A stretch of DNA of 62,956 bases, counting the filler, from Babesia bigemina (taxonomy: Eukaryota), in assembly GCF_000981445.1 (NCBI RefSeq). It is 8 parts of 8 records of this genome, joined end to end, with 100 filler letters (N's around TTAATTAATTAA, not from the genome) between each part and the next. Parts side by side here need not be neighbours in the genome. Positions count along the whole stretch, not along the records: positions 24,659 to 33,249 come from NW_012236966.1; 7 more parts are not named here. One strand, given 5' to 3'. Position numbers and translations under genes: made by a program. Below are positions 4,301 to 53,363 of this stretch, piece by piece (positions within the stretch are counted from its first letter, which is position 1; the number at the start of each line of letters is the position of its first letter). Below the pieces are notes generated by a model. The model did not search any database, was not told the DNA's origin, and saw only the letters and a program-made list of their open reading frames with translations.

Positions 4301-6989
4301 TGTCCGCGAACGCGGTGAGGAGCGATTTGATGGAGGTGACGTAGTTGCGGCGGGCGGCGGTGGTGAGGAGCCGAGTAGAGTTATCTACTTGGATGTTGAC
4401 AAATTGTTCGAGATGTTTCATTATTACATCGCGAAATGCTTCAGATTCTGTCTGGAAATTTTTAGTAGCCTCTATGGTTTGTGCCACATCGGTTCGTATG
4501 AGACCTTCCATTTTCATCTTAATTCCAATTAGTTCATTGTCATTGGTACCGTTAATAGAGTTGTTTATAAAATCGTTTAAATAGTGTTGCGCTTGTTCAC
4601 CGCTTTCCCTAACGGCACCGCACAGTTGTTCGACATGGTGTATAATTAAGTGAAGCTGTGATTCCGCATAGTTATTGATTGAGTCAATAGATGTTAGAGC
4701 CTCCCTGACTTTGGCTCCAATTTTTCCAATCTCCAATGGAAGGGCGCCCTCACTATTATCAGGATTGCCCGTCAGAGGTGACACAATACTTTGGGAGACA
4801 TGCTTAGTGTAATGTGGAAAAGCATTATCGTTAACGTTTACTTTTGCAGCTCCATTAGCGAGTACAACGCTTCCCTTGTAAGGCAACTTGCCACCAAGCG
4901 TGATAGCCACCCCGTCAATCGCCTGGTCGATATTTGTCACGTAGTCCACTGTGAAGGCTTCACCAACAGACGCTTCAATATTATGAAACAGCTTTTTTGC
5001 CACACTAACCGCAGAGTCCAGGTTATCTCCCATCTTGGACATCTTCCTGGAACTTTCATGACCGATTAACAATTTGAGTTCTTCTGCCACCTGCTGGGCT
5101 GTTGCTTGGAGAGCTGCCAGCGCCGTTTTAACGGCGCGTTCAAGGGAATAATCGTAATCAAACTTGGACGGTGTGGGACTCCTAACTTCTGTTTCGATAG
5201 CTTTTACAATACTTTTAACAAGTTCGCTAGTATCACCGGACGTGAGGCCCTCCTCATCTATCTTACTACTGAGCGTCTGCTCAAATTTTTTGATACAATC
5301 ATATACAGCGACTAAATTCCCATCCGTTTCCTTTTTGCCGGACTGAATTGTTGCATTTTCAAGCGATATTCCGAGCGCAGGTCTAATTGCTTCCGCAATT
5401 TTACCGGTATGTGAATTGCTGAATTCTTCTTTACCCTTCGTTATATAACCCTCCTTAAAGTAACCGATGCTACCGCTCTTCTCTTTTATCCACTTCCCAA
5501 CCCAGCCCTTTACTCCTGAATTATTGTCCAAAATAAGTTTTATCCACCCCTGCACTGTGCTTTCGAACGTCTTTTTGAAACGCTTGGAGTAGTCGTCGAC
5601 TATGAGCTTTTTTATACCTTCGAGACCGAAGCTTCCTAGGGTGCTACCCCTAATTTTGTAGAGCTCTGACTTCACATGTTTGAAAACGTCTGCAAATTTC
5701 CGATTTTTATCTCCTGTACCAGCTGTGCCTGTTCTAATGACTTCGTTGAGTTTACCGATTGCTGTTTTAACCTCTCCGAGTTTTTTATTTATTTGCAGTT
5801 TGACCTCTCCCAAATCTTTCTTTAAATCTTCATTCATTGATGCAACCTCCTCCAGTGCCTTTTTCACCTGAGCAACCGCATCTTTTCTGGCGGATTCCCC
5901 TGCCTTATGAAGTTCTGACGCCTTATCTCTTAACTCCTTTGCGGCGTTTTCGACGTCTTTTCTCCTTTGCCCTTTTTCATCCCATTTTACGTCATCCAAT
6001 ATATTTTGCAGTCTGTATTTAGCCGCCTGAATTGTGGCATTTGCATCCTTGATCCACTGCAATATATCTTTTATACGGTTTTGCAGAATTATGCCAATAC
6101 CTTCAATTTTTACCCTAATAATTGTAACCTTCGTGTTCAATTGGTACACTAGGTCCGTAACCTGCTCAGTAAACTCTTTCGTGATCTCAGCTTTTAGGAA
6201 TTCGTGAACACTCTTAATTTCCTCCTCCATACTCTTCAAGTCCCCTCGCTCCTTCTCCGCCAGCTTATACAGCCTCTTACCCTCATACGAAACATTGTTT
6301 AATGCAACATTTACACGATCTCTACAATTAGAATTAAGGTCTAAAATGTGTTTATTATTGTCATTGAGTTTGTTGCAGAAAGCCTGACCGGCGTCAAAGA
6401 ACTGCTTGGCAAGCATCTCAGCCCTGTCCACGGTCTTGACAATTTCACCTGCATCAGAATTATTTTCATCCAATTCACTCACCTGATTATTAAGATGTTT
6501 TACATCCTCTTGTAGAATTTTTATCGGATTCATGACTCTGTTATTAGAGTCTCTGACACCATCATTATACCCCCGCACCCCTGCGACCACACTTCCAATC
6601 GCAACACTAAAACCTTTTTTACCGGCGTGTTTATTGGTCTTCAAAGCTTCAATAGCTTCATTAATTTGTGTTTTATGCTGCCCTAAATGGTTTTGGATGT
6701 TACTGAGAACACCACTCAAAAATCCCATCACCCCGTCACACAGCCTATCCAGGTCGGAGTACACTATCCCAGTGCCGTCGTAGCCTTTGGACTCAGAGTT
6801 GAAGCCGAGGAATTTTTCGAGGCCGTCACATAAATTATCTAAGAGATTTTTACAATCATCAGACTTATTTTTTTCAGTAAAAATGCTAAGCTTATTTTCA
6901 AGTTCTTTAAGTTGTTTCTCACGCTCTTCAATGTCCTCCAAAGCTTTTTTAGTAGCATCGTCACTAAGAGAATGGTCAGTATCAGCAAG
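1357..6989 (-). pseudogene. ves1: VESA1-like variant erythrocyte surface antigen, gene 1; three apparent frameshifts near the 3' end (possibly sequencing errors) and no in-frame start ATG
   Basis: ORF 1926..6941 contains LCDGLEKFLGFN...IVYSDLDRLCDGVMGFLSGVL and SPLQSFLEDGLPGFLPH. Homology continues in other frames (1843..2088, 1425..1787) and then as IPKFIWNIRSKFFWLNVALWLLSLLYLLHIMVIRLDLLHIKSHLHSPSSHRIAAQSLLAAARVGSLGKISYLQP, stop at 1357-1359. The frame is open upstream to 6989. The ves subfamily is uncertain. Confidence 0.7.
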
Positions 6990-7702: not shown

Positions 7703-8670
7703 CATCGCCCCTTAACCCACTCTACATCGCCCCTTAACCCACTCCACATCGCTCCCTTATCCACTCCTCATCGCCCCTTAATCCACTCTACATCGCCCCT
7801 TTACCCACTCTACATCGCTCCCTAATCCACTCTACATCGCCCCTTATGCACTCTACATCGCTCCCTAACATACTCTACATCGCCCCTTTATCCACTCCAC
7901 ATCGCCCCTTTATCCACTCCACATCGCTCCCTAACCCACTCCACATCGCTCCCTAACCCACTCCACATCGCCCCTTTACCCACTCCACATCGCCCCTTAA
8001 CCCACTCTACATCGCTCCTTCATCCACTCCACATCGCTCCCTAACCCACTCCACATCGCCCCTTTACCCACTCCACATAGCTTTTAATCCACTCTACATC
8101 GCTCCTCTATCCACTCTACATCGCCCCTTTACCCACTCTACATCGCCCCTTAACCCACTCTACATCGCTCCTTTATCTACTCCACATCGCCCCTTTATCC
8201 ACTCTACATCGCCCCTTAACCTCCTCTAATCGCTCCCTAATCCACTCTACATCGCCCCTTTATCCACTCCACATCGCTCCCTTACCCACTCTGCATCGCT
8301 CCTTTATCCACTCTACATCGCCCCTTATCCACTCTACATCGCCCCTTTACCCACTCCACATCGCCCCTTTATCCACTCTACATCGCCCCTTTATCCACTC
8401 TACATCGCTCCTTTACCCACTCTACATCGCTCCCTAACCACTCTACATCGCTCCCTAACCCACTCCACATCGCCCCTTAACCCACTCTACATCGCCCCTT
8501 TACCCACCCTACATCGCTCCCTAACCCACTCTACATCGCCCCTTTATCCACTCCACATCGCCCCTCTATCCACTCTACATCGCTCCCTTACACACTCTAC
8601 ATCGCTCCTTAACCCACTCTACATCGCTCCTTAACCCACTCTACATCGCTCCTTACCCACTCTACATCCC
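7703..8670 (+). repeat. 22-bp array A upstream of gene 2
   Basis: CCACTCTACATCGC core with period 22. Confidence 0.97.
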
Positions 8671-8760
8671 CCGAATTACCTCGCCATAATACCGCTATGA
8701 CCTCTTTAGACCACAATAATAACTTGTGCTATGTCATCCTTCACCTCCCTTCTGACTGTG
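8671..8760 (+). other. conserved array-to-gene linker (GAATTACCTCGCCATAATACCGCTATGACCTC...AATAACTTG)
   Basis: Also starts at 16822, 25092 (variant), 34719 and 53366, and occurs twice on the minus strand within 6990-7176. Confidence 0.85.
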
Positions 8761-16105: not shown

Positions 16106-16820
16106 TCTACATCGCTCCTTAATCCACTCTACATCGCTCCCTAACCCACTCCACATCGCCCCTTTATCCACTCTACATCGCTCCTTAATCCACTCTACAT
16201 CGCCTTATAATCCACTCTACACCGCCCCTTTACCCACTCTTCATCGCCCTCTTATCCACTCTACACCGCTCCCTAATCCACTCTACATCGCTCCCTAACC
16301 CACTCTACATCGCTCCTTTGTCCACTCCACATCGCTCCCTAACCCACTCTACACCGCCCCTTAACCCACTCTACATCGCCCCTTAACCCACTCTACATCG
16401 CCCCTTTATCTACTCTACATCGCCCCTTAACCCACTCCACATCGCCCCTTTACCCACCTTACATCGCCCCTTAACCCACTCTACATCGCTCCCTAACCCA
16501 CTCTACATCGCTCCTTTACCCACTCTACATCGCTCCCTAACCCACTCTACATCGCCTATTATCCACTCTACATGGCCCCTTTATCCACTCTACATCGCCC
16601 CTTTATCCACTCCACATCGCTCCCTAACCCACTCCACATCGCCCCTTAACCCACTCTACATCGCTCCCTAATCCACTCTACATCGCCCCTTTATCCACTC
16701 TACATCGCCCCTTACTCCACTCCACATCGCTCCCTTAACTCACTCTACATCGCTCCCTAACCCACTCTACATCGCTCCCTAACCCACTCTACATCGCTCC
16801 TTTACCCACTCTACATCCTT
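16106..16820 (+). repeat. 22-bp array A upstream of gene 3
   Basis: Period-22 units. Confidence 0.97.
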
Positions 16821-24658: not shown

Positions 24659-25090
24659 CCACTCTACATCGCCCCTTACCCACTCTACATCGCCCCTTTA
24701 TCCACTCTACATCGCCCCTTAACCCACTCTACATCGCCCCTTAACCCACTCTACATCGCTCCTTTATCCACTCTACATCGCCCCTTTACCCATGCTACAT
24801 CGCTCCTTAATCCACTCTACATCGCTCCCTTACCCACTCAACATCGCTCCCTAATCCACTGTACATCGCTCCCTAACCCACTCCACATCGCCCCTTTATC
24901 CACTCTACATCGCCCCTTTACCCACTCCACATCGCCCCTTTACCCACTCTACATCGCTCCTTTACCCACTCTACATCGCTCCCTAACCCACGCTACATCG
25001 CTCCCTTATCCACTCTACATCGCCCCTTAACCCACTCTACATCGCTCCTTAACCCACTCTACATCGCCCCTTTACCCACTCCACATCCCT
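24659..25090 (+). repeat. 22-bp array A upstream of gene 4
   Basis: Period-22 units. Confidence 0.97.
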
Positions 25091-25141
25091 CGAATTACCT
25101 TGTCTTATTAACGCTATGACCTCTTTAAACCATCCTAATAA

Positions 25142-28100
25142 CTTGTTGATAGTGACCATTTTCTCACTGACGATGCTACTATAAGAGCCTTGAATGACAT
25201 TGACTCCAAGCTCATTAGCCTTGGTCACCTGGCTGGCCAACTTGGAGGATTTGTTGGTCAAAGTGACAGTGTTAAGAAAGCCGTTAAGAATGCTATTATC
25301 GCTAAAATTAACAGTACTGAAGAGCTTAAAAATGTTTACTCTTCTCTTGTTACTACCCTTTCTGAGTCTGTCAAGTCTGGTGTCCAGGCTGGTGACACCA
25401 AGAAAATTAGTGAGCTTAATAAGTTAGTTACTGCAGAAATTCAGCGTCTTAATGATCAACTTAGTAAGCCTAATAACCTTAATAATAACTCTCCTTCTTC
25501 CCCCTCTCCCTCTGCTGACCCAGCCAAATTGCAGTCCAAGTTGGAGGCATTGGAGAAAGTGAAGGAGCTTTGTGAATTTTATGAGAATTTCAAGAATCAT
25601 CCAAATGAGCCTAAAAATATCCTTGTTAATTTATGTTCCGGCCTCGAAACCTTCCTCGGCTTCAATCCATCTTCCAAAGGCTACGACGGCTCTGGGATTG
25701 TGTACTCCGACCTTGACAGGCTGTGTGACGGGGTGATGGGATTTTTGAGTGGTGTGCTTGGTGCGGTGAAAAATGATCCAAGCGTTAAGACATACACTTT
25801 AATAACCGAACTTGACTTTAATAAACTTTTAGATAATATGCATAATGGTGTTTTTGGTTTTGGTGTTTGCATAGACCATGTGATGCGTGTACTTCATGAC
25901 TATGTTGCCGAGTTGCATAAGCGTACTGAGGCAGTTATGAAGCCTGTTAATGGCATCAATAGATCGATAGAAGAACACAAACTTTTAATTCAGCAGGAAA
26001 AAGATGTTGAGCTTTTCGACCAGATTGCCGGGTGGACTCAACGCGCTGCGCAGTACATCGACCAAGCCAGGCAATCCAGAAAAGCGTTAAATAATCTCGA
26101 TTCCGATTTATACGGTAAGTTGAAATGTAATGTATCATTGGTGTTGCAGGCGACGGAGACCTTTATGGAAAATTGTTCAAACAGCGACCTCCATGAGATC
26201 CATGTGGCATCATTCAATACAATGTTGAAGGTATCAGGTAAAATTGGCGAGAGGTTTCAAGCAAGCATCAACAGAGTACAATATTATTTAAATGCTAAGA
26301 TTAACGAATTACATAAAAATCTATCTGGTTTTCGTGATACGCAATTCAAAGAATTGTACGACGCTGTAACAGGAGTCTACGTGGCTTTCAAGGATGTGTA
26401 CGGAGACATGGAATCGCTTCTACCGAAGTATGCACGAGAAGTTGTTGGTAAGGTGGAAAGTATCTCCCATTCCTCGGAGCAGTTTAAGCTGTCATTTGAA
26501 AAAACGCAACGTGCGCTGTTGTCGGCGACGCAACAAGTGGCGACGCAACTCGGAAATTTTGAAAATCTGCAACGTGTGGATGGAATAGACGGCAGCCTTA
26601 GAGGCAGAGTGAAATTTTTAAAACACATCGGCGAAAGTGAAAATGCTTTTACTGTCGTTAATGGTTACTTGACGAAGCTGAACGAGGATGTCATGACGCC
26701 TCTGTCGATTGCTATGTATGGGATAGGTGAGGGATTTGGACAGAATGTTCTGTCGAAAACCAATAGTGATGTAGACGACGCCATAAAACACGCTATAGGG
26801 GAGATAAAATTGCTTAAAAGTATTGACAGCAAATTTCCAAATTTTGGCGAGCTTCGAAGTAAATTACAAGAACTTGGTATTGATATGGGTAGTGTTGGCG
26901 ACGACCTTAAGGGCAAATTCACGGATGTCGATGAACTCAATGCAGTGATTCAGAAGCTGGAAGAATCCTCTAAAATGGACAAAGGTGACGCGACAGTAAT
27001 TTTCACAGAAATGGCCACTGTAACTGAGGCCATATCTTCGCATTCTACGGATGTTTTTGTAAAAGTGCTGAATGAAATTAAAAAGCAAGTAACTGAAGAA
27101 ATTAGAGATGTAGCCGGCGCTATTAAGAGCATGGTTACGACTATTCATACCGGTGTAAAATATGATCAAAATGACAAGGAGTATGATTACGGTGGTGGCG
27201 CCATCGGCATAGGCAATTCGGCATCTGGAGTTCTGAAACTGATTAGTGAGTTTATATCCAATATTTACAATCAGGTTACAATGCTTCATAAAAGTGTTGG
27301 AAAAGAGGGTGAAGATGCAGGGAGCAGTAGCGTTTACAGGGATATAAAAAAACTTCACGCGAGCATTGGTATTCTAAGTACAGAAATTGAGAAAGTTGGC
27401 AAACAAGTCACAGAAGTTGAGAAAAAACTGGAAGACTGCATGAAGTCGACGTTTGAATTTATTAACGAGGCTCCTAAATGGGCTGAAAAAATCATGGATG
27501 ATTTACGCCAAGACGTGAATGGAGAAATTGCCAATGGTTTCGAAAACGTTCAGAAAAAGGCTAAGGAGATATATGTAAAGAGGAAGCAATTGGAGCTGAA
27601 CTCCTTGCACTCCATTGTAAACGAACAACATAAACGGATTGAGGAAATACTCGATGAAGATAAACGTAATGGCGTTAAAGGATTAATGAAGCGGATGAAT
27701 GATTACAAGTTGCTCAATGATTTTAAAATTGTCCTCACCCCGTCCTCTAAACATGACCCTACTAAATTCTCCCAACTCGGCGCAAAGTTCCAAGACTACG
27801 TCGACAAAATTCTAGAGTACCTAAAGTACCAAGTCATGACCAAAAGTAAGCCTCCTCAGCCTACCGACCACTCCAGACACGTCGAAGGCATCAGGGAGTC
27901 GTTTGACGTATTGCTCCGATATCTCATGTATACGGGTCATAGTAAATATTTCAATTTTACTCACGAATCCGATGAATTACTGTCCAATCTGATCGATTCC
28001 GTCCATTCCCTAACTCCCCTCACCTCCACCCTCGACCCCCAAGCGCTGCCGGACGCAGGACGGCCCGTGCTCAGGGCGCTGAAGGATGGGATGCTGGGAT

Positions 28101-30403
28101 TCGTGGGAGAGTTGGGGAAGGGGTATGTGAACAGGTATGATGGGCATAAGGATGTTATTGATATGAGTAAATTGGTTGATACAAAAGGTAATTTGACGAA
28201 TAATGGCAGAAATTTGTCGAAGGTGTTTTTGACGATTTTGGAGATGATATTCTACAGACTCGAAAAATTAAGGAGGAGTTGTGTAACAGGTGGTGAATGC
28301 ATAAATAATAAGACGTGTTTAACTGAGTTAGTAAACGGTAATAAAAAGGAGAGTGTCCTCGGCAAATGGCTGCAGTACCATGGTTATAGGGTCTCCTACG
28401 ATGAGGAGACGCAGAACGGTGAGTTGAAGAGAGACATGACGGGGAGAGATATTCATGCCATTCTCGTCAAAAGCGGGAAAGATCGGAAACATCTCTTTGC
28501 ATCTGATAATTCTAGGTTGGACAGCGGTGCTCTTAGGCAGCTTATCGGCCACCTTGGCACGTACTACGATGTATGCCATATTCGTTATATCGAGAAGCCA
28601 AAACAACCGACCACTGTTAAACAGATGCTTCACTGGCTATGTGGATTCTGGCATAATCCGATGCGTGATAAGGTTAGGTTCTCGCTCAAGGAATACTTCC
28701 CCAAACCTAAGGGACGCGAGGAGGAAGATTATTCCACTATTAAGAGCAGCGACATTAGCCTAGATGCAACTACAACGATTACGCCTCACTCACTAGACGA
28801 CAATATCAAACGCCTTTGTGCGTATTCCCATGACACGTTAATCGCAATCCTGGGTCACGGTCAAGAGGAGGGCCGATACGCAGTTGACTTTCGCACAAAC
28901 CCCGACGGTTTGTGGTATCCAATTAACAAATATCAATGTTTCGATATGTTTGTAGATATGTCGTATAAGTTGTATGACCAACTGTACTTCGTATTGGTTC
29001 AGTGCCAGCGCAATTCAGAGGCCAATAGCTGGCGTGACTGCTATTACGGCAGGTACGTGGGCGGTTCGTCATGGACTTGTAATGAGAAGCAATGTGTCAA
29101 CCAAAACTGTCCCCAAATAGCTGACCAAAAGGCTAACCAAAATGCCAACCAAAAGGCTGACCAAACGTGTGGCCAGCACCCTGTATGCGGTGTCAAATCA
29201 CCTTTGCAATCCTTCTTAGAGGACGGACTGCAGGGCTTCCTTCCTCACCATTTTACGAAGGTGGGATGTGGAGTTCAGTGTTCAGTGAGCAATCACAGAG
29301 GAATTCCATGTAAGACACCAATGGGCTTTGGTGATATTGGTAATGCCGCATCGCATACCCAGAAGGGTGAGTATATCATGAAATCGCTTGATGAATTCTG
29401 CGGGAAACCGAGTAGTCCGCTGAGAAACCTCTGCAGCTACTTCATATGCCTTTTACAGAGGACCCCGCAAACGCTGGATGATATGTTCGCATTCTTCAGC
29501 AATTACCTGCGAAACTGGAATGATATAGACCAGCAACGTAGGAAGCATATACAAGGGGCACTGGATAACGCAACCGCCAAGGCGTACTTCGGCGTCAATT
29601 ATGGTGAGCTCAATGTTAATTCCATATTCTATAGCAGTGCTAGCAATAAAAATCATAGCAATGGAGATTTGCTGTGCCTCCTCAATTGCGATAATTATTC
29701 AACGATGACCTGCGGCCGTTTTATGCAGCCTTTCGGGTTCAACACATGGAATATTTTCGCAGCGAAGAACTCAGGCAGATACCTATCGTGGATTGTTTAT
29801 CTCACGGAAACATTCTACAACCTGTTGCAACAACTATACGAAGAATGTTGCAACAATTGCACCAAACCAGGAACCAGGTGCCACGGTAAAGTATGCCCGG
29901 ATGAATGTAAAGTGAAGTCGGCATACAAATCTGAGGACACGAAAACCGCACTAAGCAATCAAAAGCACACTGATGGTTGCAAATCAATAGCGTTATGTCC
30001 ACTCACGCGTCCTACGTTAGCAAGATACGGTTTTGTACTGCAGAGTATATCTAACCTCAGTGGCGAAAATGGCCCCGAAACGAAACGCACGTGTCAGGAT
30101 TTGTGCAACTCCTTACAGATTGTACTTAACAACAAAGAAGCGGACAAACATGTTCTCGCCGAATTTGTATACCGAACTATTCCGAACTTCCTCTGGGCTA
30201 TCAGAAGTAAATTCTTCTGGACCACCGTAGCCCTCTGGTCACTATCACTCTTCTACCTCATCTGCGTGATGGTTGGCAGACTGGATGTGCTCCACATACG
30301 CTCACACCTGAGGATACCGTCGTCGCACAAGATTACAGCGCAGTCATTGCTGGCGGCGACGCAAGTCGGAAGGCTTGCCAAGATATCGTATCTACAACCA
30401 TAA
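25142..30403 (+). CDS. ves1: VESA1-like antigen, gene 4 (about 1750 codons open, tail type B); lacks the SIDWLIQV head and a start ATG
   Basis: Frame opens after TAATAA at 25136-25141 (ORF track start 25190 is TTG); conserved YSDLDRLCDGVMGFLSGVL, SPLQSFLEDGLQGFLPH, TM and GRLAKISYLQP. Confidence 0.75.
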   Translation, partial: LVDSDHFLTDDATIRALNDIDSKLISLGHLAGQLGGFVGQSDSVKKAVKNAIIAKINSTEELKNVYSSLVTTLSESVKSGVQAGDTKKISELNKLVTAEIQRLNDQLSKPNNLNNNSPSSPSPSADPAKLQSKLEALEKVKELCEFYENFKNHPNEPKNILVNLCSGLETFLGFNPSSKGYDGSGIVYSDLDRLCDGVMGFLSGVLGAVKNDPSVKTYTLITELDFNKLLDNMHNGVFGFGVCIDHVMRVLHDYVAELHKRTEAVMKPVNGINRSIEEHKLLIQQEKDVELFDQIAGWTQRAAQYIDQARQSRKALNNLDSDLYGKLKCNVSLVLQATETFMENCSNSDLHEIHVASFNTMLKVSGKIGERFQASINRVQYYLNAKINELHKNLSGFRDTQFKELYDAVTGVYVAFKDVYGDMESLLPKYAREVVGKVESISHSSEQFKLSFEKTQRALLSATQQVATQLGNFENLQRVDGIDGSLRGRVKFLKHIGESENAFTVVNGYLTKLNEDVMTPLSIAMYGIGEGFGQNVLSKTNSDVDDAIKHAIGEIKLLKSIDSKFPNFGELRSKLQELGIDMGSVGDDLKGKFTDVDELNAVIQKLEESSKMDKGDATVIFTEMATVTEAISSHSTDVFVKVLNEIKKQVTEEIRDVAGAIKSMVTTIHTGVKYDQNDKEYDYGGGAIGIGNSASGVLKLISEFISNIYNQVTMLHKSVGKEGEDAGSSSVYRDIKKLHASIGILSTEIEKVGKQVTEVEKKLEDCMKSTFEFINEAPKWAEKIMDDLRQDVNGEIANGFENVQKKAKEIYVKRKQLELNSLHSIVNEQHKRIEEILDEDKRNGVKGLMKRMNDYKLLNDFKIVLTPSSKHDPTKFSQLGAKFQDYVDKILEYLKYQVMTKSKPPQPTDHSRHVEGIRESFDVLLRYLMYTGHSKYFNFTHESDELLSNLIDSVHSLTPLTSTLDPQALPDAGRPVLRALKDGMLGFVGELGKGYVNRYDGHKDVIDMSKLVDTKGNLTNNGRNLSKVFLTILEMIFYRLEKLRRSCVTGGECINNKTCLTELVNGNKKESVLGKWLQYHGYRVSYDEETQNGELKRDMTGRDIHAILVKSGKDRKHLFASDNSRLDSGALRQLIGHLGTYYDVCHIRYIEKPKQPTTVKQMLHWLCGFWHNPMRDKVRFSLKEYFPKPKGREEEDYSTIKSSDISLDATTTITPHSLDDNIKRLCAYSHDTLIAILGHGQEEGRYAVDFRTNPDGLWYPINKYQCFDMFVDMSYKLYDQLYFVLVQCQRNSEANSWRDCYYGRYVGGSSWTCNEKQCVNQNCPQIADQKANQNANQKADQTCGQHPVCGVKSPLQSFLEDGLQGFLPHHFTKVGCGVQCSVSNHRGIPCKTPMGFGDIGNAASHTQKGEYIMKSLDEFCGKPSSPLRNLCSYFICLLQRTPQTLDDMFAFFSNYLRNWNDIDQQRRKHIQGALDNATAKAYFGVNYGELNVNSIFYSSASNKNHSNGDLLCLLNCDNYSTMTCGRFMQPFGFNTWNIFAAKNSGRYLSWIVYLTETFYNLLQQLYEECCNNCTKPGTRCHGKVCPDECKVKSAYKSEDTKTALSNQKHTDGCKSIALCPLTRPTLARYGFVLQSISNLSGENGPETKRTCQDLCNSLQIVLNNKEADKHVLAEFVYRTIPNFLWAIRSKFFWTTVALWSLSLFYLICVMVGRLDVLHIRSHLRIPSSHKITAQSLLAATQVGRLAKISYLQP

Positions 30404-30547
30404 TCGTATTCACATTTGTCATTCACAACTACTCACTTAGCGAATCACCTACTCACCTAACAAACAAACGTAGTCTAATGTCTCGAATTACTCTAGCGGT
30501 AACCTGTGAACTGGATAGCGTTGAAATTAAGTGATGAGTGAAAGACA

Positions 30548-30950
30548 AAGCAACGTGTTAACCTAGCACCCAGGCAAAGTGCTAAGCTGGCACCCAGGCT
30601 AAGTGCTCAGCAAGCACATAGGCAACGTGTTAACCTAGCACTCAGGCAAAGTGGTAACCTAGCACTCAGGCAAAGTGCTAAGCTGGCACCCAGGCAAAGT
30701 GGTGACCTAGCAACCAGGCAAAGTGTTGACCTAGCACACAGGCAAAGTGCTAAGCTAGCACCCAGGCAAAGTGCTAAGCTTGCAACCAGGCAAAGTGCTG
30801 ACCTAGCACTCGGGCAAAGTGCTAAGCTGGCAACCAGGCTAAGTGGTAAGCTAGCAACCAGGCAAAGTGGTAAGCTAGCAACCAGGCAAAGTGGTAAGCT
30901 AGCAACCAGGCAACGTGCTAAGCTGGCACACAGGCAAAGTGCTGAGCTGG
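30548..30950 (+). repeat. 24-bp array D
   Basis: CAGGCAAAGTGCTAAGCT(A/G)GCAC units. Confidence 0.95.
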
Positions 30951-31464
30951 CGGATGAACCGTAATTTGGTGGGTGTTGTAGCACGTTGATTGCCCGGTGC
31001 TTTGAGTTGTGCGTTGACTGTGAGAGGCGTCCGCGTTGCCCATTGAGTCAGTGTCACGTGAGGCTGGGTGATTGGTCGCTAACGTAGGCGGCCGTGAGGG
31101 CCGCGGCGGGTGACCTAAGTCGTGTGTTGCGAGTCACTGGCAGGGTGGCGTAATCCGCGTTGGCCCGGTTAAGTAGTATATATAGGCGTCAATGTAGCGA
31201 TTGTTAATATCACATTTAGGCACGTAGCCGACACGCTCCGCCAGCATGGCGCCGATACCGCGGCTCGTAGCACGGTGCTGCTGCACTGTGGGAGTTGAGC
31301 GCACGGGGTTCGCTGCAATTTTCATGGCGTTGCCAATGGTATATAATTTAGAGTGAGAGTTGGTGCTGATCACATGCGTCGCGTCAGGACAACCGTGGTA
31401 TCCCGGGCAGCGTGGGTGTCAGTGGCCTGGGCTGGGGGGATACAGGGGTGAGGGTGAGTGTTGA

Positions 31465-31846
31465 TGAGGGGACTGGGAGCGGCAGTGGTAGTGTTGCAGT
31501 TGGTGAGTGCGTTGCTAGGTGATTGATATGTTAGCAGGTTGAGGGGAGTGGGAGCGGCAGTGGTAGTGTTGCAGTTGGTGAGTGCGTTGCTTAAGTGATT
31601 GATATGTTCGCAGGCTGAGGGGACTGGTAGCGGCAGTGTTCGTGTTGCAGTTGGTGAGTGCTGCTTGGGTGATTGATATGTTCGCAGGTTGAGGGGACTG
31701 GGCGCGGCAGTGGTACGTGTCGCAGTTGGTGAGTGCTGCTTGAGTGATTGATATGTTTGCAGGCTGAGGGGACTGGGAGCGGCAGTGGTAGTGTTGCAGT
31801 TGGTGAGTGCGTTGCTAGGTGATTGATATGTTTGCAGGCTGAGGGG
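31465..31846 (+). repeat. five tandem 74-76-bp units, each containing a GTGAGT...GCAG 34-36-nt intron-like segment
   Basis: TGAGGGG unit starts at 31465, 31540, 31616, 31690 and 31765, with a partial sixth at 31840. Confidence 0.92.
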
Positions 31847-31860
31847 ATAGGGAGGAGAAG

Positions 31861-32328
31861 ATGTCGTGGGAGAAGTGTAAGTGTAACAAAAACTGTACGA
31901 AGAGTGACTGTTATTGCTGTTACGTGTGTTGTACAGGATGTACTAGAACAAGGTGTTTTTATTGTATGGAATTCTATAGTGAGCGCAGTCGTGGAATGAA
32001 ACAATGCCATACTAATGGATGTAAAGAGTGCAACACCGCCGAATGTCCATGTAAGTGTTGTGATGAGAAACGCTTTGAAGCTTCCCGTCGACAACGTGCC
32101 GCCGGTCAACAGCAATCCCTTACTTCCTCCCATGTCTCCTCTTCTACCACCGTACAACGTTCCACCGGCGGACCCGGTACTGCTCACACCACGAATCCCT
32201 CCAAGTCTTCAGATCTCACAGTTGCCATGATCATCGTCCCCGTCGCCCTCATCATCGTCGTCATCTGCGTCATGGTCTACTTCCGCATCCGGCCGTTCCA
32301 CAGGGTGCGGTATCTACTGCGCAGCTGA
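31861..32328 (+). CDS. small Cys-rich, Ser/Thr-stalk, C-terminally anchored membrane protein (155 aa)
   Basis: ATG-started ORF with an N-terminal Cys/Lys-rich region (CKCNKNC..CYCCYVCC), an S/T-rich linker, hydrophobic VAMIIVPVALIIVVICVMVYF and basic tail RIRPFHRVRYLLRS; no signal peptide. Confidence 0.7.
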   Translation: MSWEKCKCNKNCTKSDCYCCYVCCTGCTRTRCFYCMEFYSERSRGMKQCHTNGCKECNTAECPCKCCDEKRFEASRRQRAAGQQQSLTSSHVSSSTTVQRSTGGPGTAHTTNPSKSSDLTVAMIIVPVALIIVVICVMVYFRIRPFHRVRYLLRS

Positions 32329-32411
32329 TCGCAATCACGTAACTGGCAACTGACATCTAATGTTCTAGACAGAGTAATGATCGCGTTGATGACCAGTCAC
32401 ATGAGCAGTGA

Positions 32412-32573
32412 GGTGACCAAGCACCTTCCCCCTCCGCCATCGCCGCCGTCATCGTCGCCATCATCGTCGCCATCATCCTGCTCGACCTGTGCATCTTCCG
32501 CTTCCCGGTGGGCCGCAACATCCGCGATTTCCTCGTACGCAAGATACCCTTCTGCATCGCGTTCTACAGCTAA
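32412..32573 (+). pseudogene. orphan TM+tail coding fragment (…SAIAAVIVAIIVAIILLDLCIFRFPVGRNIRDFLVRKIPFCIAFYS*)
   Basis: Manual translation: 53 codons between an in-frame TGA (32409-32411) and TAA; no ATG. Confidence 0.65.
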
Positions 32574-32693
32574 TATCCGCAATGTGTTAGCGCAAACATC
32601 GTAATCCAAGTTCCACCGATCACCTAACTGGCAACTGACATCTAATGTTCTATACAGTAATGATTGCTTGATGACCAATCACATGAGCAGTGA

Positions 32694-32855
32694 GGTGACC
32701 ATAACCCCGCCCCTTACATCATCGCCGCCGTCATCGTTGCCATCATCGTCGCCATCATCCTGCTCGACCTGTGCATCTTCCGCTTCCCGGTGGGCCACAG
32801 AATCCGCGATTTCCTCGTCCGCAAGATACCCTTCTGCATCGCGTTTTACAGCTGA
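32694..32855 (+). pseudogene. second orphan TM+tail fragment (…PYIIAAVIVAIIVAIILLDLCIFRFPVGHRIRDFLVRKIPFCIAFYS*)
   Basis: Manual translation; paralog of 32412-32573. Confidence 0.65.
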
Positions 32856-32955
32856 TCTAAGCAATTTAGTAGCGCAAAGATCTTAATCAAAATCCCGCTG
32901 ATCACCTAACTGGCAACTGACATCTAATGTTCTAGACAATGTATTGATCGCGTTG

Positions 32956-33102
32956 ATGACCAATCACATCAGCGGTGAGGTGACTACTTCCCCCGCCCCT
33001 TACATCATCGCCGCCGTCGCCCTCATCATCATCGTCATCTGCGTCATGATCTACTTCCGCATCCGGCCGTTCCACAGGGTGCGGTATCTACTGCGCAGCT
33101 GA
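32956..33102 (+). pseudogene. duplicate of the small gene's TM+tail as a 48-aa ORF (MTNHISGEVTTSPAPYIIAAVALIIIVICVMIYFRIRPFHRVRYLLRS*)
   Basis: Manual translation; 33030-33200 is nearly identical to 32255-32425. Confidence 0.55.
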
Positions 33103-33184
33103 TCGCAATCACGTAACTGGCAACTGACATCTAATGTTCTAGACAGAGTAATGATCGCGTTGATGACCAGTCACATGAGCAGTG

Positions 33185-33249
33185 AGGTGACCAAGCACCT
33201 GACCAATGCCACGACCAAAGTGGTGACCAAGACGCTGCCCAAAGTGCTG
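33185..33249 (+). repeat. 12-bp array C, truncated by contig end
   Basis: GACCAA every 12 nt. Confidence 0.85.
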
Positions 33250-33349: not shown

Positions 33350-34717
33350 TACATCGCTCCCTTATCCACTCTACATCGCCCCTTAACCTCCTCTAATCGC
33401 TCCCTAATCCACTCTACATCGCCCCTTTACCCACTCTACATCGCCCCTTTGTCCACTCTACATCCCTCCTTATCCACTCCACATCGCCCCTTTACCCACT
33501 CTACATCGCTCCTTAACCCACTCTACATCGCTCCCTAATCCACTCTACATCGCCCCTTATCCACTCTACATCGCCCCTTAACCCACTCTACATCGCTCCC
33601 TAACCCACTCTACATCGCCCCTTTATCCACTCTACATCGCCCCTTAACCCACTCTACATCGCCCCTTTATCCACTCTACATCGCCCCTTAACCCACTCTA
33701 CATCGCTCCCTAACCCACTCTTCATCGCTCCCTAACCCACTCTAGATCGCTCCTTAACCCACTCTACATCGCCCCTTAACCCACTCTACATCGCTCCTTT
33801 GTCCACTCTACATCGCCCCTTTACCCACTCTACATCGCTCCTTTACCCACTCTACATCGCTCCTCTATCCACCTTACATCGCCCCTTTATCCACTCTACA
33901 TCGCCCCTTTACCCACTCCACATCGCCCCTTAACCCACTCTACATCGCTCCTTAACCCACTCCACATCGCCCCTTAACCACTCTACATCGCTCCCTAATC
34001 CACTCTACATCGCCCCTTTATCTACTCCACATCGCTCCCTAACCCACTCTACATCGCTCCTCTATCCACTCTACATCGCCCCTTATCCACTCTACATCGC
34101 TCCCTAACCCACTCCACATCACCCCTTAACCCACTCTACATCGCCCCTTTACCCACTCTACATCGCTCCCTAACCCACTCTACATCGCTCCTTTACCCAC
34201 TCTACATCGCTCCTTTATCCACTCTACATCGCTCCTTTACCCACTCTACATCGCCGCTTTACCCACTCCACATCGCCCCTTTACCCACTCCACATCGCCC
34301 CTTTACCCACTCCAGATCGCTCCTTAACCCACTCTACATCGCTCCCTTACCCACTCTACATCGCCCCTTTACCCACTCTACATCGCTCTCTAACCCACTC
34401 TACATCGCCCCTTTACCCACTCTACATCGCTCCCTAATCCACTCTACATCGCTCCTTAACCCACTCCACATCGCTCCCTAATCCACTCTACATCGCTCCT
34501 TTATCCACCTTACATCGCTCCTCTATTCACTCTACATCGCTCCCTAACCCACTCTACATCGCCCCTTAACCCACTCCACATCGCCCCTTTATCCACTCTA
34601 CATCGCCCCTTTACCCACTCTACATCGCCCCTTAACCCACTCTACATCGCCCCTTTATCCACTCCACATCGCCCCTTAACACACTCTACATCGCTCCCTT
34701 ATCCACTCCACATCGCT
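33350..34717 (+). repeat. 22-bp array A upstream of gene 5
   Basis: Period-22 units. Confidence 0.97.
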
Positions 34718-34776
34718 CGAATTACCTCGCCATATTACCGCTATGACTTCTATAAACCATAGCAATAACTTGTGCC

Positions 34777-40464: not shown

Positions 40465-42112
40465 TTATCCACCTTACATCGCCCCTTTATCCACTCTACA
40501 TCGCCCCTTAACCCACTCTACATCGCTCCTTTACCCACTCCACATCGCCCCTTTATCCACTCTACATCGCTCCTTTATCCACTCTACATCGCTCCTTAAC
40601 CCACCCTACATCGCCCCTTTATCCACTCTACATCGCCCCTTAACCCACTCTACATCGCCCCTTTATCCACTCTACATCGCCCCTTTACCCACTCTACATC
40701 GCTCCCTAAACCACTCTACATCGCTCCTTAACCCACTCTACATCGCCCCTTATCCACTCCACATCGCCCCTTAACCCACTCTACATCGCTCCCTAACCCA
40801 CACTACATCGCCCCTTAACCCACTCCACATCGCTCCTTATCCACTCTACATCGCCCCTTAACCCACTCTACATCGCTCCTTTATCCACTCTACATCGCTC
40901 CTTTATCCACTCTACATCGCTCCTTAACCTCCTCTAATCGCCCCTTTACCCACACTACATCGCCCCTTTATCCACTCCACATCGCTCCTTTACCCACTCC
41001 ACATCGCCCCTTTATCCACTCTACATCGCCCCTTTATCCACTCTACATCGCCCTTTATCCACTCTACATCGCTCCTTTATCCACTCTACGTCGCCCTTTA
41101 TCCACTCTACATCGCCCCTTTACCCACTCCACATCGCCCCTTGATCCACTCCACATCGCCCCTTAACCCACTCTACATCGCTCCCTTATCCACTCTACAT
41201 CGCTCCCTTATCCACTCCACATCGCTCCCTAACCCACTCTACATCGCTCCTTTACCCACTCCACATCGCCCCTTTATCCACTCTACATCGCTCCTTTATC
41301 CACTCTACATCGCTCCTTAACCCACCCTACATCGCCCCTTTATCCACTCTACATCGCCCCTTAACCCACTCTACATCGCCCCTTTATCCACTCTACATCG
41401 CCCCTTTACCCACTCTACATCGCTCCCTTAACCCACTCTACATCGCCCCTTTACCACCTTACATCGCTCCTTAACCCACTCCACATCGCTCCCTAACCCA
41501 CTCTACATCGCCCCTTTATCCACTCTACATCGCTCCCTAGCCCACTCCACATCGCCCCTTAACCCACTCTACATCGCCCTTTATCCACTCTACATCGCCC
41601 CTTTACCCACTCCACATCGCCCCTTGATCCACTGCACATCGCCCCTTAACCCACTCTACATCGCTCCCTTATCCACTCTACATCGCTCCCTTATCCACTC
41701 CACATCGCTCCCTAACCCACTCTACATCGCTCCTTTACCCACTACACATCGCCCCTTTATCCACTCTACATCGCTCCTTTATCCACTCTACATCGCTCCT
41801 TAACCCACCCTACATCGCCCCTTTATCCACTCTACATCGCCCCTTAACCCACTCTACATCGCCCTTTATCCACTCTACATCGCTCCTTTATCCACTATAC
41901 GTCGCCCTTTATCCACTCTACATCGCCCCTTTACCCACTCTACATCGCTTCCTAACCCACTCCACATCGCTCCTTTACCCACTCCACATCGCCCCTTAAC
42001 CCACCTTACATCGCTCCTTATCCACTCTACATCGCCCCTTTATCCATCTTACATCGCTCCTTTACCCACTGTACATCGCTCCCTAACCCACTGTACATCG
42101 CTCCTTTACCCA
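40465..42112 (+). repeat. 22-bp array A downstream of gene 5
   Basis: Period-22 units with internal block duplications. Confidence 0.97.
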
Positions 42113-42212
42113 NNNNNNNNNNNNNNNNNNNNNNNNNNNNNNNNNNNNNNNNNNNNTTAATTAATTAANNNNNNNNNNNNNNNNNNNNNNNNNNNNNNNN
42201 NNNNNNNNNNNN

Positions 42213-43544
42213 TAACCCACTCTACATCGCCGCTTATCCACTCTACATCGCCCCTTTGTACACTCCTCATCGCCCTTAACCCACCTTACATCGCTCCTTT
42301 ATCCACTCTACATCGCTCCTTTATCCACTCTACATCGCTCCCTAATCCACTCTACATCGCCCCTTAACCCACTCCACATCGCCCCTTTAACCACTCTACA
42401 TCGCTCCTTTAACCACTCTACATCGCTCCTTATCCACCTGACATCGCTCCTTTATCCACTCCACATCGCTCCCTAACCCACTCTACATCGCTCCTTTATC
42501 CACTCTACATCGTTCCCTAACCCACTCTACATCGCCCCTTAACCACTCTACATCGCTCCTTATCCACTCTACATCGCCCCTTTACCCACTCCACATCGCC
42601 CCTTAACCCACTCTTCATCGCTCCTTAACCCACTCTACATCGCTCCCTAACCCACTCTACATCGCCCCTTTATCCACTCTACATCGCCCCTTAACCCACT
42701 CTACATCGCTCCTTTATCCACTCTACATCGCTCCTTTATCCACACTACATCGCCCCTTTATCCACTCTACATCGCCCCTTTATCCAATCTACATCGCTCC
42801 CTAACCCACTCTACATCGCCCCTTTACCCACTCTACATCGCTCCTTAACCCACTCTACATCGCTCCCTAACCCACTCTACATCGCTCCCTAACCCACTCT
42901 ACATCGCTCCCTAACCCACTCTACATCGCTCCCTAACCCACTCCACATCGCTCCTTTATCCACCTTACATCGCCCCTTAACCCACTCCACATCGCTCCTC
43001 TGACCACTCTACATCGCCCCTTTACCCACTCCACATCGCCCCTTTATCCACTCTACATCGCCCCTTTATCCACTCTACATCGCCCCTTAACCCACTCTAC
43101 ATCGCTCCCTTATCCACGCTACATCGCTCCTTTATCGACTATACATCGCCCTTTACCCACTCTACATCGCTCCTTTATCGACTATACATCGCCCTTTACC
43201 CACTCTACATCGCTCCTTAACCCACTCCACATCGCTCCCTAACCCACTCTACATCGCCCCTTTATCCACTCCACATCGCCCCTTTATCCACTCCACATCG
43301 CCCCTTTATCCACTCTACATCGCCATTTAACCCACTCTACATCGCTCCTTAACCCACTCTACATCGCTCCCTAACCCACTCTACATCGCCCCTTTATCCA
43401 CTCCACATCGCCCCTTTATCCACTCCACATCGCTCCTTAACCCACTCCACATCGCCCCTTTAACCACTCTACATCGCTCCCTAACCCACTCTACATCGCC
43501 CCTTAACCCACTCTACATCGCCCCTTTACCCACTCTACATCGCC
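42213..43544 (+). repeat. 22-bp array A upstream of gene 6, fused directly to coding sequence
   Basis: ...CTACATCGCC is immediately followed by AATTAAGTCCCTTAATGCC. Confidence 0.97.
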
Positions 43545-50010: not shown

Positions 50011-51089
50011 TATCCACTCTACATCGCTCCTTAACCCACTCTGCATCGCCCCTTATCCACCTTACATCGCCCTTAACCCACTCTACATCGCCCCTTTGTC
50101 CACTCCACATCGCCCCTTAACCCACTCCACATCGCTCCTTAACCCACTCTACATCGCCCCTTAACCACTCCACATCGCTCCCTAACCAACTCTACATCGC
50201 CCCTTTAACCACTCTACATCGCCCCTTACTCCACTCTACATCGCTCCCTAACCCACTCCACATCGCCCCTTTACCCACTCTACATCGCTCCCTAATCCAC
50301 TCCACATCGCCCCTTTACCCACTCTACATCGCCCCTTTACCCACTCCACATCGCTCCCTAACCCACTCTTCATCGCTCCCTTACCCACTCCACATCGCTC
50401 CTTTATCCACTCTACATCGCCCCTTAACCCACTCCACATCGCTCCTTTATCCACTCCACATCGCTGCCTTATCCACTCTACATCGCTCCCTAATCCACTC
50501 TACATCGCCCCTTTATCCACTCTACATCGCCCCTTACTCCACTCTACATCGCCCCTTATCCACCTTACATCGCCCTTAACCCACTCTACATCGCCCCTTT
50601 ATCCACTCTACATCGCCCCTTTATCCACTCTACATCGCCCCTTAACCTCCTCTAATCGCTCCTTAACCCACTCTACATCGCCCCTTTATCCACTCTACAT
50701 CGCCCCTTTATCCACTCTACATCGCCCCTTAACCTCCTCTAATCGCTCCCTTATCCACCCTTCATCGCCCCTTTATCCACTCTACATCGCTCCTTATCCA
50801 CTCTACATCGCCCCTTATCCACTCTACATCGCTCCCTAATCCACTCTACATCGCCCCTTTATGGGCTCTACATCGCCCCTTTATCCACTCTACATCGCCC
50901 CTTTATCCACTCTACATCGCCCCTTTACCCACTCTACATCGCCCCTTTACCCACTCTCCATCGCTCCCTAACCCACTCTACATCGCTCCCTAACCCACTC
51001 TACATCGCTCCTTTAACCACTCTACATCGCCCCTTTATCCACTCCACATCGCCCCTTAACCCACTCTACATCGCCCCTTTATCCACTCT
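50011..51089 (+). repeat. 22-bp array A downstream of gene 6
   Basis: Period-22 units. Confidence 0.97.
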
Positions 51090-51189
51090 NNNNNNNNNNN
51101 NNNNNNNNNNNNNNNNNNNNNNNNNNNNNNNNNTTAATTAATTAANNNNNNNNNNNNNNNNNNNNNNNNNNNNNNNNNNNNNNNNNNNN

Positions 51190-53363
51190 ACATCGCCCCT
51201 TACCTCCTCTACATCGCTCCCTAACCCACTCCACATCGCCCCTTTATCCACTCTACATCGCCCCTTTATCCACTCTACATCGCCCCTTTACCCACTCTAC
51301 ATCGCCCTTTTATCCACTCCACATCGCCCCTTAACCCACTCTACATCGCTCCTTTATCCACTCCACATCGCCCCTTACCCACTCTACATCGCCCCTTAAC
51401 CCACTCTGCATCGCTCCCTAACCCACTCTACATCGCCCCTTAACCCACTCTACATCGCCCCTAACCCACTCTACATCGCCCCTTAACCCACTCTACATCG
51501 CCCCTTACCCACTCTACATCGCTCCCTAACCCACTCTACATCGCTCCCTAATCCACTCTACATCGCCCCTTTATCCACTCTACATCGCCCCTTTACCCAC
51601 TCTACATCGCCTATTTATCCACCCTTCATCGCTCCTTTATCCACTCTACATCGCTCCTTAACCCACTCTACATCGCTCCCTAACCCACTCTACATCGCTC
51701 CCTAACCCACTCTACATCGCCCCTTAACCCACTCTACATCGCTCCCTAACCTCCTCTAATCGCTCCTTAACCCACTCCACATCGCCCCTAACCCACTCTA
51801 CATCGCCCCTTTATCCACTCTACATCGCTTCTTAACCCACTCTACATCGCCCTTTAACCCACTCTACATCGCTCCTCAATCCACTCCACATCGCCCCTTT
51901 ATCCACTCTACATCGCCCCTTTACCCACTCTACATCGCTCTTCTACCCACTCTACATCGCCCCTTTATCCACTCTACATCGCCCCTTAACCCACTCTACA
52001 TCGCCCCTTAACCCACTCCACATCGCCCCTTAACCCACTCTACATCGCCCCTTTATCCACTCTACATCGCCCCTTAACCCACTCCACATCGGTCCTTATC
52101 CACTCTACATCGCCCCTTATCAACTCTACATCGCCCCTTTATCCACTCTACATCGCTCCCTAACCCACCCTACATCGCCCCTTTATCCACTCTACATCGC
52201 TCCCTAACCCACTCTCCATCGCTCCCTAACCCACTCCACATCGCCCCTTAATCCACTCTACATCGCTCCCTAACCAACTCTACATCGCCCCTTTACCCAC
52301 TCTACATCGCTCCCTTACCCACTCTACATCGCTCCCTTACCCACTCTACATCGCTCCCTAATCCACCCTACATCGCCCCTTTATCCACTCTTCGTCGCCC
52401 CTTAATCCACTCTACATCGCCCCTTTACCCACTCTACATCGCCCCTTTATCCACTCCACATCGCCCCTAACTCCACTCTACATCGCCCCTTAATCCACTC
52501 CACATCGCTCCCTAACCCACTCTTCATCGCCCCTTAACCCACTCTTCATCGCTCTCTGATCCACTCTACATCGCTCCTTTATCCACTCTACATCGCCCCT
52601 TAACCCACTCTACATCGCTCCCTAATCCACTCTACATCGCCCCTTAACCCACTCTACATCGCCCCTTCATCCACTCTACATCGCCCCTTTACCCACTTTA
52701 CATCGCCCCTTTATCCACTCTACATCGCTCCTTTACCCACCCTACATCGCCCCTTAACCCACCTTACATCGCTCCTTAACCCACTCTACATCGCCCCTTT
52801 ACCCACACTACATCGCTCCTTAATCCACTCTACATCGCTCCTTTAACCACTCTACATCGCTCCCTTATCCACTCTACATCGCTCCTTAACCCACTCTACA
52901 TCGCCCCTTTACCCACACTACATCGCCCCTTTACCCACACTACATCGCCCCTTAACCTACTCTACATCGCTCCCTTATCCACTCTACATCGCTCCCTAAC
53001 CCACTCTCCATCGCCCCTTTATCCACTCTACATCGCCCCTTACCTCCTCTACATCGCTCCCTAACCCACTCCACATCGCCCCTTTATCCACTCTACATCG
53101 CCCCTTTATCCACTCTACATCGCCCCTTTACCCACTCTACATCGCCCTTTTATCCACTCCACATCGCCCCTTAACCCACTCTACATCGCTCCTTTATCCA
53201 CTCCACATCGCCCCTTACCCACTCTACATCGCCCCTTAACCCACCCTTCATCGCCCCTTATCCACTCTACATCGCCCCTTTACCCACTCTACATCGCCCC
53301 TTAACCCACTCTACATCGCTCCCTAACCCACTCTACATCGCTTTTTTACCCACTCCACATCCC
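51190..53363 (+). repeat. 22-bp array A upstream of gene 7 (at least 2.1 kb)
   Basis: Period-22 units. Confidence 0.97.

What the first reader, a model, noticed from the sequence alone, without database searches (positions are those of the whole stretch)
32230..33200. Tandem magazine of four alternative TM-anchor/cytoplasmic-tail cassettes, three hidden from the ORF track
Seen by manual translation: after the gene's own tail X (…ICVMVYFRIRPFHRVRYLLRS*) come tail Y at 32412-32573, tail Y' at 32694-32855 (…IILLDLCIFRFPVG(RN/HR)IRDFLVRKIPFCIAFYS*) and a second tail X at 32956-33102, giving the order X-Y-Y'-X. Each is preceded by the same spacer (AACTGGCAACTGACATCTAATGTTCTA...TGAGGTGAC). The Y/Y' differences keep the frame and several are synonymous. 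The last copy is a Y'/X chimera (PAPYIIAAV + ALIIIVICVM). Inference: swappable anchors used by recombination in the shared ATC/GTC/GCC-rich TM codons or by alternative terminal exons. This parallels the A/B tail dimorphism of the large genes.
Basis: partly seen in the sequence, partly recalled or inferred. Interest (0 to 1): 0.7.

Follow-up and report, generated by a model that had tools for sequence, protein, structure and literature searches.

The report
Stacked spare gene ends in Babesia
In the cattle parasite Babesia bigemina, a small cysteine-rich membrane-protein gene is followed by three extra copies of its family's gene end (membrane anchor, short tail and downstream flank), likely left by tandem duplication and kept intact by recombination within an apparently unnamed family of about 50 genes rather than by a programmed anchor-switching system.

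Summary
The four tails (X-Y-Y'-X) are real and sit where stated. The locus is a 155-aa, 18-cysteine, single-membrane-span gene of an apparently unnamed B. bigemina family (50 annotated models found: 17 tail X, 33 tail Y only). Two corrections. The 'spacer' trails each tail and is the family's 3' flank: its motif occurs 11 times in the window, after all 7 ves1 genes and the 4 tails (shuffles 0.025), with matching spacing. The chimera is Y', not the last X. Flank-to-orphan-tail junctions recur in at least 4 of 17 reference X models and in contigs of 5 of 8 independent runs, in other orders, so stacking is species-wide; this exact order is unconfirmed and ends 49 bases from a contig end. Best reading (0.62): tandemly duplicated 3' modules, homogenised by recombination, exchanging X and Y now and then. 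Programmed switching and alternative last exons lack support: the cassettes add almost no new sequence, two of three lack a usable splice frame, and no RNA was available.

The parts
31465..31854 (+). 5.2 copies of a 75-bp repeat upstream of the start codon; each holds a 34-36-nt GT-AG mini-intron-like piece (31503-31537, 31578-31613, 31654-31687, 31729-31762, 31803-31837) and a 40-41-nt exon-like piece; likely a spliced 5' leader
   Evidence: covered by many contigs in other runs; splicing inferred from sequence only
31861..32328 (+). Intact 155-aa gene: 18-cysteine domain, Ser/Thr-rich stalk, one membrane span (about residues 121-139), tail X; no N-terminal hydrophobic signal
32221..32328 (+). 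The gene's own membrane span and tail X (X1)
32334..32426 (+). 3' flank copy 1 ('spacer'): ves1-type end motif at 32335, running into the first units of the 12-bp array
32412..32573 (+). Orphan tail Y; from 32439 identical to the commonest Y end (16 of 33 Y-only models); no start codon in frame
32574..32699 (+). Y-type 45-nt flank plus 3' flank copy 2 (motif at 32620)
32694..32855 (+). Orphan tail Y': X-type start on a Y tail, with two amino-acid changes seen in 0 of 36 annotated Y tails; no start codon in frame
32856..32984 (+). Y-type flank plus 3' flank copy 3 (motif at 32902)
32956..33102 (+). Orphan tail X2 (48-codon frame from an ATG inside the flank); 33050-33200 identical to 32276-32426
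33108..33191 (+). 3' flank copy 4, identical to copy 1 (motif at 33109)
33164..33249 (+). 12-bp repeat array like those behind ves1 genes, running to the contig end
25142..30403 (+). Upstream neighbour on the same contig: large ves1-type open frame with the same 3' motif at 30453 (context)

Best explanation
The stretch is a stack of three extra 3' modules (membrane span, tail, stop, 3' flank) behind an intact member of a roughly 50-gene B. bigemina cysteine-rich membrane-protein family; it likely arose by tandem duplication and unequal recombination, and the spare copies are likely kept near-perfect by gene conversion with working genes, with occasional X-for-Y exchange in the shared membrane-span codons. 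Shown: the anatomy, the family, both tails on whole genes, the flank's identity with ves1 3' ends, and the recurrence of flank-to-tail junctions elsewhere. Inferred: that one old duplication at the start of the 12-bp array put a second tail behind the first (tail X looks like a shortened Y module: 7 versus 47 bases from stop to motif), that copy number and order then varied, that only the first tail is translated here, and that the protein sits at the red-cell or parasite surface like VESA1.
For: Motif TCAC[CG]TA-N14-20-TAAT[GC]T occurs 11 times in the window: behind 6 plus-strand ves1 ends, behind the minus-strand ves1 gene (1311, not used to derive it) and behind the 4 tails; 200 shuffles give mean 0.025, max 1. 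Stop-to-motif 46-50 nt for 6 ves1 ends, 47 for Y and Y', 7 for X; motif-to-array 72-77 in all 10. Family: 13 hits with the gene, 36 with tail Y, 48 with a 13-sequence profile, all B. bigemina; 18 invariant cysteines across X and Y genes, all kept here. Four of 17 X models (P0013, P0014, P0024, P0050) run through flank-derived residues into a Y span, so X-flank-Y DNA exists at other loci of a capillary-sequenced reference (PMC4066756 methods). Contigs bridging flank to tail: X2 (32415 to 32988, side 43), X3 (32998 to 32432, side 55), X4 (record 28; 32998 to 32235, side 44), X5 (33166 to 32720, side 47), X1 (record 5, depth 2.6) = 5 of 8 runs, 5 studies. The junction ahead of X2 here leads to Y in run X3. 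Chimeras: Y' and P0012.
Against: No RNA was laid, so silence of the spare tails is assumed. Orphan Y is letter-perfect at the protein level, which function would also explain. By hand from the joint tables, 4 of 6 junctions in other runs keep the flank's open frame into the tail (2 unclear), against 1 of 3 here; the 12-bp period may explain this, but it fits splicing too. The ectodomain tree is unresolved (X needs 3 changes, 135 of 500 shuffles as low; AU p 0.235), so exchange among whole genes rests on one model, P0012. No listed contig spans this array; X1 and X2 share 151 identical bases near a contig end, which an assembler could also produce. Reference gene models are ab initio.
Confidence: 0.62

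Rival explanations
1. Functional reservoir: the spare tails are kept so that the linked gene can switch anchor class by deletion or conversion through the shared membrane-span codons, changing sorting or partners of the same ectodomain.
For: Orphans are intact and consensus-like; in-frame identity with the gene's span exists (X2: runs of 25, 17 and 17 bases; Y and Y': 9-11 bases); chimeras Y' and P0012; stacks recur across isolates; ves1 genes with swapped 3' ends are known in this species (PMC4066756).
Against: About 50 genes already offer the same two tails, so local spares add nothing new; two of three spares repeat a class; homology to Y is only 9-11 bases; no recombination signal other than the ordinary 3' flank; tree test inconclusive; no switched allele of this locus seen.
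Confidence: 0.12
2. Alternative last exons: splicing from the end of tail X into the flank adds a linker and a second span with tail Y, or replaces the tail.
For: Branch-point-like CTAAT and an AG in the flank; 3 reference models are drawn this way and 2-3 more splice nearby; for X2 all 3 AG sites leave an open frame; several junctions in other runs keep frame (by hand).
Against: Those models are ab initio and use at least three different donor/acceptor pairs. Here only 2 of 8 AG sites before Y and 1 of 4 before Y' give an open frame, all weak and right at the span; the main acceptor is mutated in flank 2; the donors near the tail match 3 of 5 consensus positions and the two best donors lie inside the cysteine domain. 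The same motif sits behind ves1 genes that have no downstream tail.
Confidence: 0.12
3. This particular order is an assembly product: real junctions from several family loci were threaded into one path through the identical X-plus-flank repeat.
For: 151 identical bases between X1 and X2 modules; contig ends 49 bases after the finding; window is a string of contigs joined by N-linkers; no listed piece spans the array.
Against: X1 and X2 differ at four sites just upstream of the identical run; three distinct flank alleles; each junction type is seen independently, so at most the order and count would be wrong, not the existence of stacked tails.
Confidence: 0.1
4. Serial replacement scar: each time a new ectodomain with its own end is copied in, the old tail is pushed downstream.
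For: Orphans begin right at the juxtamembrane motif and ectodomains are hypervariable between conserved 5' repeats and conserved tails.
Against: Junctions fall into a few shared types across isolates and the reference, which fits inheritance of old junctions better than new events; first and last modules are identical.
Confidence: 0.04

Closest known systems
B. bigemina ves1 (BbigVes1a/1b and the recombinant 1ba class; PMC4066756)
   Same: Same 3' flank motif and spacing, same downstream 12-bp array, neighbour on the contig, single C-terminal span without signal peptide, two tail classes, 3'-end exchange between classes (16 ves1ba genes in the paper).
   Different: 155-200 aa rather than 1,700-2,000; 18-cysteine domain; tail homology to VESA1 only weak (hhalign probability 13%); stacked orphan tails not seen behind the 6 plus-strand ves1 ends in this window.
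B. bovis ves1 truncated genes as donors for segmental gene conversion (PMC2034396); CKRD domain of B. bovis VESA1 (PMC6630957)
   Same: Partial gene copies beside intact ones; cysteine- and lysine-rich variable domain with conserved patches.
   Different: Donors there vary the exposed domain; here the spare part is the invariant anchor. CKRD homology was not tested; the papers say B. bigemina VESA lacks CKRD.
Trypanosoma brucei VSG 3' donation (PMC3708902)
   Same: Variable N-terminal domain joined to interchangeable C-terminal ends through local homology.
   Different: No tandem store of tails behind the gene; boundaries there have a median 57 bp of homology versus 9-11 identical bases between X and Y here; that paper doubts that 3' exchange itself adds antigenic change.
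BbigVes2 and B. bovis SmORF (PMC4066756)
   Same: Short, multi-copy, ves-associated genes.
   Different: Those have signal peptides and no membrane span; this family has the reverse.

Membership tests
Unnamed B. bigemina 18-Cys single-span family (BBBOND hypothetical proteins) | 18 invariant cysteines in the N-terminal domain | tested here: met
   13 sequences chosen for whole domains
Unnamed B. bigemina 18-Cys single-span family (BBBOND hypothetical proteins) | C-terminal span with tail X or Y | tested here: met
VESA1 (BbigVes1a/1b) | Large extracellular domain | tested here: not met
   155 aa versus 1,687-2,077-codon frames in the window
VESA1 (BbigVes1a/1b) | Conserved VESA C-terminal domain | tested here: inconclusive
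   X versus one ves1 tail type: probability 13%, E 0.002 over 9 columns; Y none; X versus Y itself scored 0.8%, so the test is weak
VESA1 (BbigVes1a/1b) | No signal peptide, one C-terminal span, short tail | tested here: met
   hydropathy 3.37 at residue 121, N-terminal maximum 0.61; topology per PMC2034396 and PMC6630957 passages
VESA1 (BbigVes1a/1b) | Displayed on the infected red-cell surface | not testable with these tools
   needs localisation
BbigVes2 / SmORF | Signal peptide present, membrane span absent | tested here: not met
   definition in PMC4066756 section 22
Silent-cassette conversion systems (ves1 SGC, VSG 3' donation) | Promoterless partial copies with homology to the expressed gene | tested here: met
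   orphans lack ectodomain; Y and Y' lack an in-frame start; in-frame identity 9-25 bases
Silent-cassette conversion systems (ves1 SGC, VSG 3' donation) | Cassettes store sequence diversity | tested here: not met
   Y equals the commonest Y end; Y' differs by 2 residues, X2 by 1 conservative change
Silent-cassette conversion systems (ves1 SGC, VSG 3' donation) | Expressed gene shown to acquire a cassette | tested here: inconclusive
   chimeras Y' and P0012; tree test unresolved; no clonal or RNA data
Alternative terminal exons | Good acceptor with open frame before each tail and a matching donor | tested here: not met
   met formally for X2 only; for Y 2 of 8 and Y' 1 of 4 AG sites, all weak
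Alternative terminal exons | Spliced transcripts | not testable with these tools
   no RNA holder listed

The most novel reading that the evidence does not exclude
B. bigemina has an overlooked third ves-linked variant family, tiny 18-cysteine membrane proteins that share the ves1 3'-end module, and its genes keep in-line spare anchors so that one ectodomain can change tail class (X or Y) by local recombination or splicing, a class-switch-like device in an apicomplexan.
Probability: 0.15. Interest if true: 0.75.

Novelty: new variant of a known kind. Interest (0 to 1): 0.42.

Why it matters
The spare tails are probably recombination by-products, but they expose a family that specialists seem not to have named: about 50 short, hypervariable, cysteine-knotted membrane proteins restricted (in these searches) to B. 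bigemina, sharing the ves1 3' flank and topology. B. bigemina VESA1 is reported to lack the cysteine-rich domain of B. bovis VESA1, so a stand-alone cysteine-rich variant protein is a plausible missing part of its host interface. One member is transcribed and differs strongly between virulent and culture-attenuated strains in a published table. The stacks also explain several wrong-looking two-span gene models in the reference annotation. The shared motif behind ves1 and these genes is a testable candidate for a 3'-end or regulatory signal.

Tried and rejected
No genome is held for the window, so copy number and stack frequency could not be counted on DNA. No RNA holder listed. None of the 8 runs laid covers the gene's stalk region (32082-32205) and three (X6, X9, X10; 39, 1 and 8 records) showed no flank-to-tail junction; piece tables were cut (1102 and 78 rows unseen); one X4 joint (side 28) and one X6 joint (side 28) were dropped as under 31 letters; no GT-AG intron skip was listed in any run. 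Pfam: nothing at cut-off for the gene, tails or 13 members. ESM Atlas: best feature score 0.82 (generic single-span proteins), nothing for the cysteine domain of P0020, structure rows all TM under 0.5. AlphaFold2 model pLDDT 54.6, pTM 0.25, too weak to fold-search. The profile search over 50% representatives gave no result, so distant relatives in other species remain open. Ectodomain tree of 16 rows with whole domains (4 X, 12 Y; 35 models without a whole domain left out) was unresolved. Expression tables: family ids found 0 of 11 in PMC9806345 (control gene present), 0 of 6 in PMC9531838 (no control), 0 of 11 in the PMC4066756 proteome, 0 of 6 in PMC5660447 supplements, 1 of 6 plus 0 of 8 by prefix in PMC10975891 (one search showed only the first 5 rows per prefix, none family); strain divergence makes such blanks uninformative. 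Metallothionein likeness of the cysteine pattern was considered from memory and dropped as untested. Earlier-findings look-ups gave nothing relevant.

Full report
Setting. The window is a string of contigs joined by N-linkers; the finding lies at the end of the contig 24659-33249. Seven very long frames end in two types of ves1-like tail, and every protein hit for the small gene is labelled Babesia bigemina. The window's own protein was not listed among the hits (best BLASTP identity over most of its length 36-50%).

Observation. Behind the ves1 frame 25142-30403 come a 24-bp array, a GC-rich stretch, 5.2 copies of a 75-bp repeat with five GT-AG mini-intron-like pieces, and a 155-aa gene at 31861-32328. 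Tails Y, Y' and X2 follow at the stated places. The spacer occurs four times, each behind a tail. Y and Y' differ at 7 of 135 coding bases versus 13 of 45 flank bases (p 6.6e-5). X1 and X2 modules are identical over 151 bases.

The family. Searches with the gene, with tail Y and with a 13-sequence profile returned 13, 36 and 48 proteins, together 50 distinct models, all B. bigemina hypothetical proteins: 17 carry tail X, 33 tail Y only. In 13 sequences picked for whole domains, 18 cysteines are invariant across X and Y genes and the window gene keeps them all; 29 of 33 Y-only models show the terminal cysteine box. Contigs from other runs join the 5' repeats to an X span (X1, sides 50 and 59) or a Y span (X6, side 34) across unknown letters, as whole genes would. 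Orphan Y equals the commonest Y end (16 of 33); Y' carries two changes seen in 0 of 36 Y tails and an X-type start (PYII in 10 of 17 X, 0 of 33 Y-only); X2 matches ordinary X alleles; P0012 is the mirror chimera. Pfam, ESM Atlas and AlphaFold2 gave no family or fold.

What the spacer is. Aligned with the six plus-strand ves1 ends, the spacers are colinear with the ves1 3' flank up to the start of the downstream repeat array. A motif drawn from that alignment occurs 11 times in the window: 6 plus-strand ves1 ends, the minus-strand ves1 end at 1311 that was not in the alignment, and the 4 spacers; shuffles give 0.025 (the pattern was chosen after seeing the alignment). Distances agree: stop to motif 46-50 for ves1, 47 for Y and Y', 7 for X; motif to array 72-77 in all ten. 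The last 30 bases of the spacer already follow the 12-bp period of the array. The repeat unit is therefore tail plus 3' flank, and the orphan tails are inserted where the array would begin.

Is stacking general? Three reference models (P0013, P0014, P0024) run from tail X through flank-derived residues into a whole Y, P0050 into a Y span, and P0049 ends in Y's last residues. These are ab initio models on a capillary assembly (PMC4066756 methods passages): weak evidence for splicing, good evidence for X-flank-Y DNA, and a lower bound. In coded public runs, contigs bridge flank to tail in 5 of 8 runs from 5 studies, in orders such as Y-flank-Y, flank-X-flank and X-flank-X-type start. The junction that precedes X2 here precedes Y in run X3. 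No piece spans the window's own array.

Mechanism. Most likely an old tandem duplication of the 3' module, varied since by unequal recombination, with orphan tails kept close to the working consensus by gene conversion; X and Y exchange at the shared span codons (9-11 identical in-frame bases between X1 and Y or Y'). Duplication history, conversion and silence of the orphans are inferred. Alternative exons fit X2 formally but Y and Y' poorly. A switching reservoir is not excluded, but the cassettes store almost no new sequence, and a 16-row ectodomain tree could neither show nor reject shuffling of tails (3 changes, 135 of 500 shuffles as low, AU p 0.235). An assembler may have fixed the local order.

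Expression. BBBOND_0111400 (P0002, tail X) is in the differential table of PMC10975891 with logFC -9.16, logCPM 8.28, FDR 2.0e-7; that paper's Table 4 reads negative values as higher in the virulent strain. Many unrelated genes there show similar values, so this shows transcription of one member and little more. Other tables gave blanks (see Tried and rejected).

Comparison. PMC4066756 (passages, sections 20 and 22, supplement searches) defines BbigVes1a, 1b, 16 recombinant 1ba genes and signal-peptide-bearing, span-less Ves2, and mentions other unique predicted surface proteins without naming this family. PMC5660447 and PMC10463595 (passages) list Babesia multigene clusters, none described like this in what I saw. 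PMC6630957 and PMC2034396 (passages) give VESA1 topology, CKRD and truncated donors. PMC3708902 (passages) describes VSG 3' donation. PMC9806345 (abstract, outline, supplement search) and PMC9531838 (supplement search only) were checked for ids. Five Babesia searches listed no paper on this family or on stacked tails; subscription papers are not covered. The gene is not a VESA1, Ves2 or SmORF member by the tested features, but it shares ves1's 3' module and topology; tail homology to VESA1 is only a hint.

Verdict. Real, species-wide and probably a by-product of recombination in a ves-associated family; the family itself is the more valuable lead. Interest 0.42.

Noticed in passing
window 14943, 22864, 30403, 40269, 49482, 59047: ves1 tail type goes with its downstream array: the two genes of one tail type are followed by a 24-bp array, the four of the other type by the 12-bp array, so tail, flank and array travel as one block.
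   Followed up: partly
window 31522 and 31822 (minus strand): The TCACCTA core of the 3' motif also lies inverted in two of the five 5' mini-introns, and in two or three copies in each ves1 3' flank; a candidate DNA- or RNA-binding site.
   Followed up: no
window 31465-31854: Many reference models translate these 75-bp leader repeats as N-terminal protein, probably a recurrent annotation error; repeat number varies in other runs (75-base skip).
   Followed up: partly
window 32259-32277 versus 30256 and other ves1 span ends: The end of the X membrane span matches the equivalent codons of ves1 spans at 13-15 of 17 bases in 5 of 6 genes, a weak hint of common origin or exchange.
   Followed up: partly
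window 1311-6989 (minus strand): This ves1 frame stops at 1926, short of the conserved C-terminus, while its 3' motif lies at 1311; a break in the gene or an assembly error.
   Followed up: no
window 7703-8672, 16106-16817, 24659-25087, 33350-34718, 40475-43544, 50014-53361: Long arrays of a 22-bp C-rich repeat sit directly before the ves1 frames and at contig breaks.
   Followed up: no
window 32795-32801: The two residue changes in Y' create six bases identical to the aligned place in tail X, possibly a micro-conversion tract.
   Followed up: no
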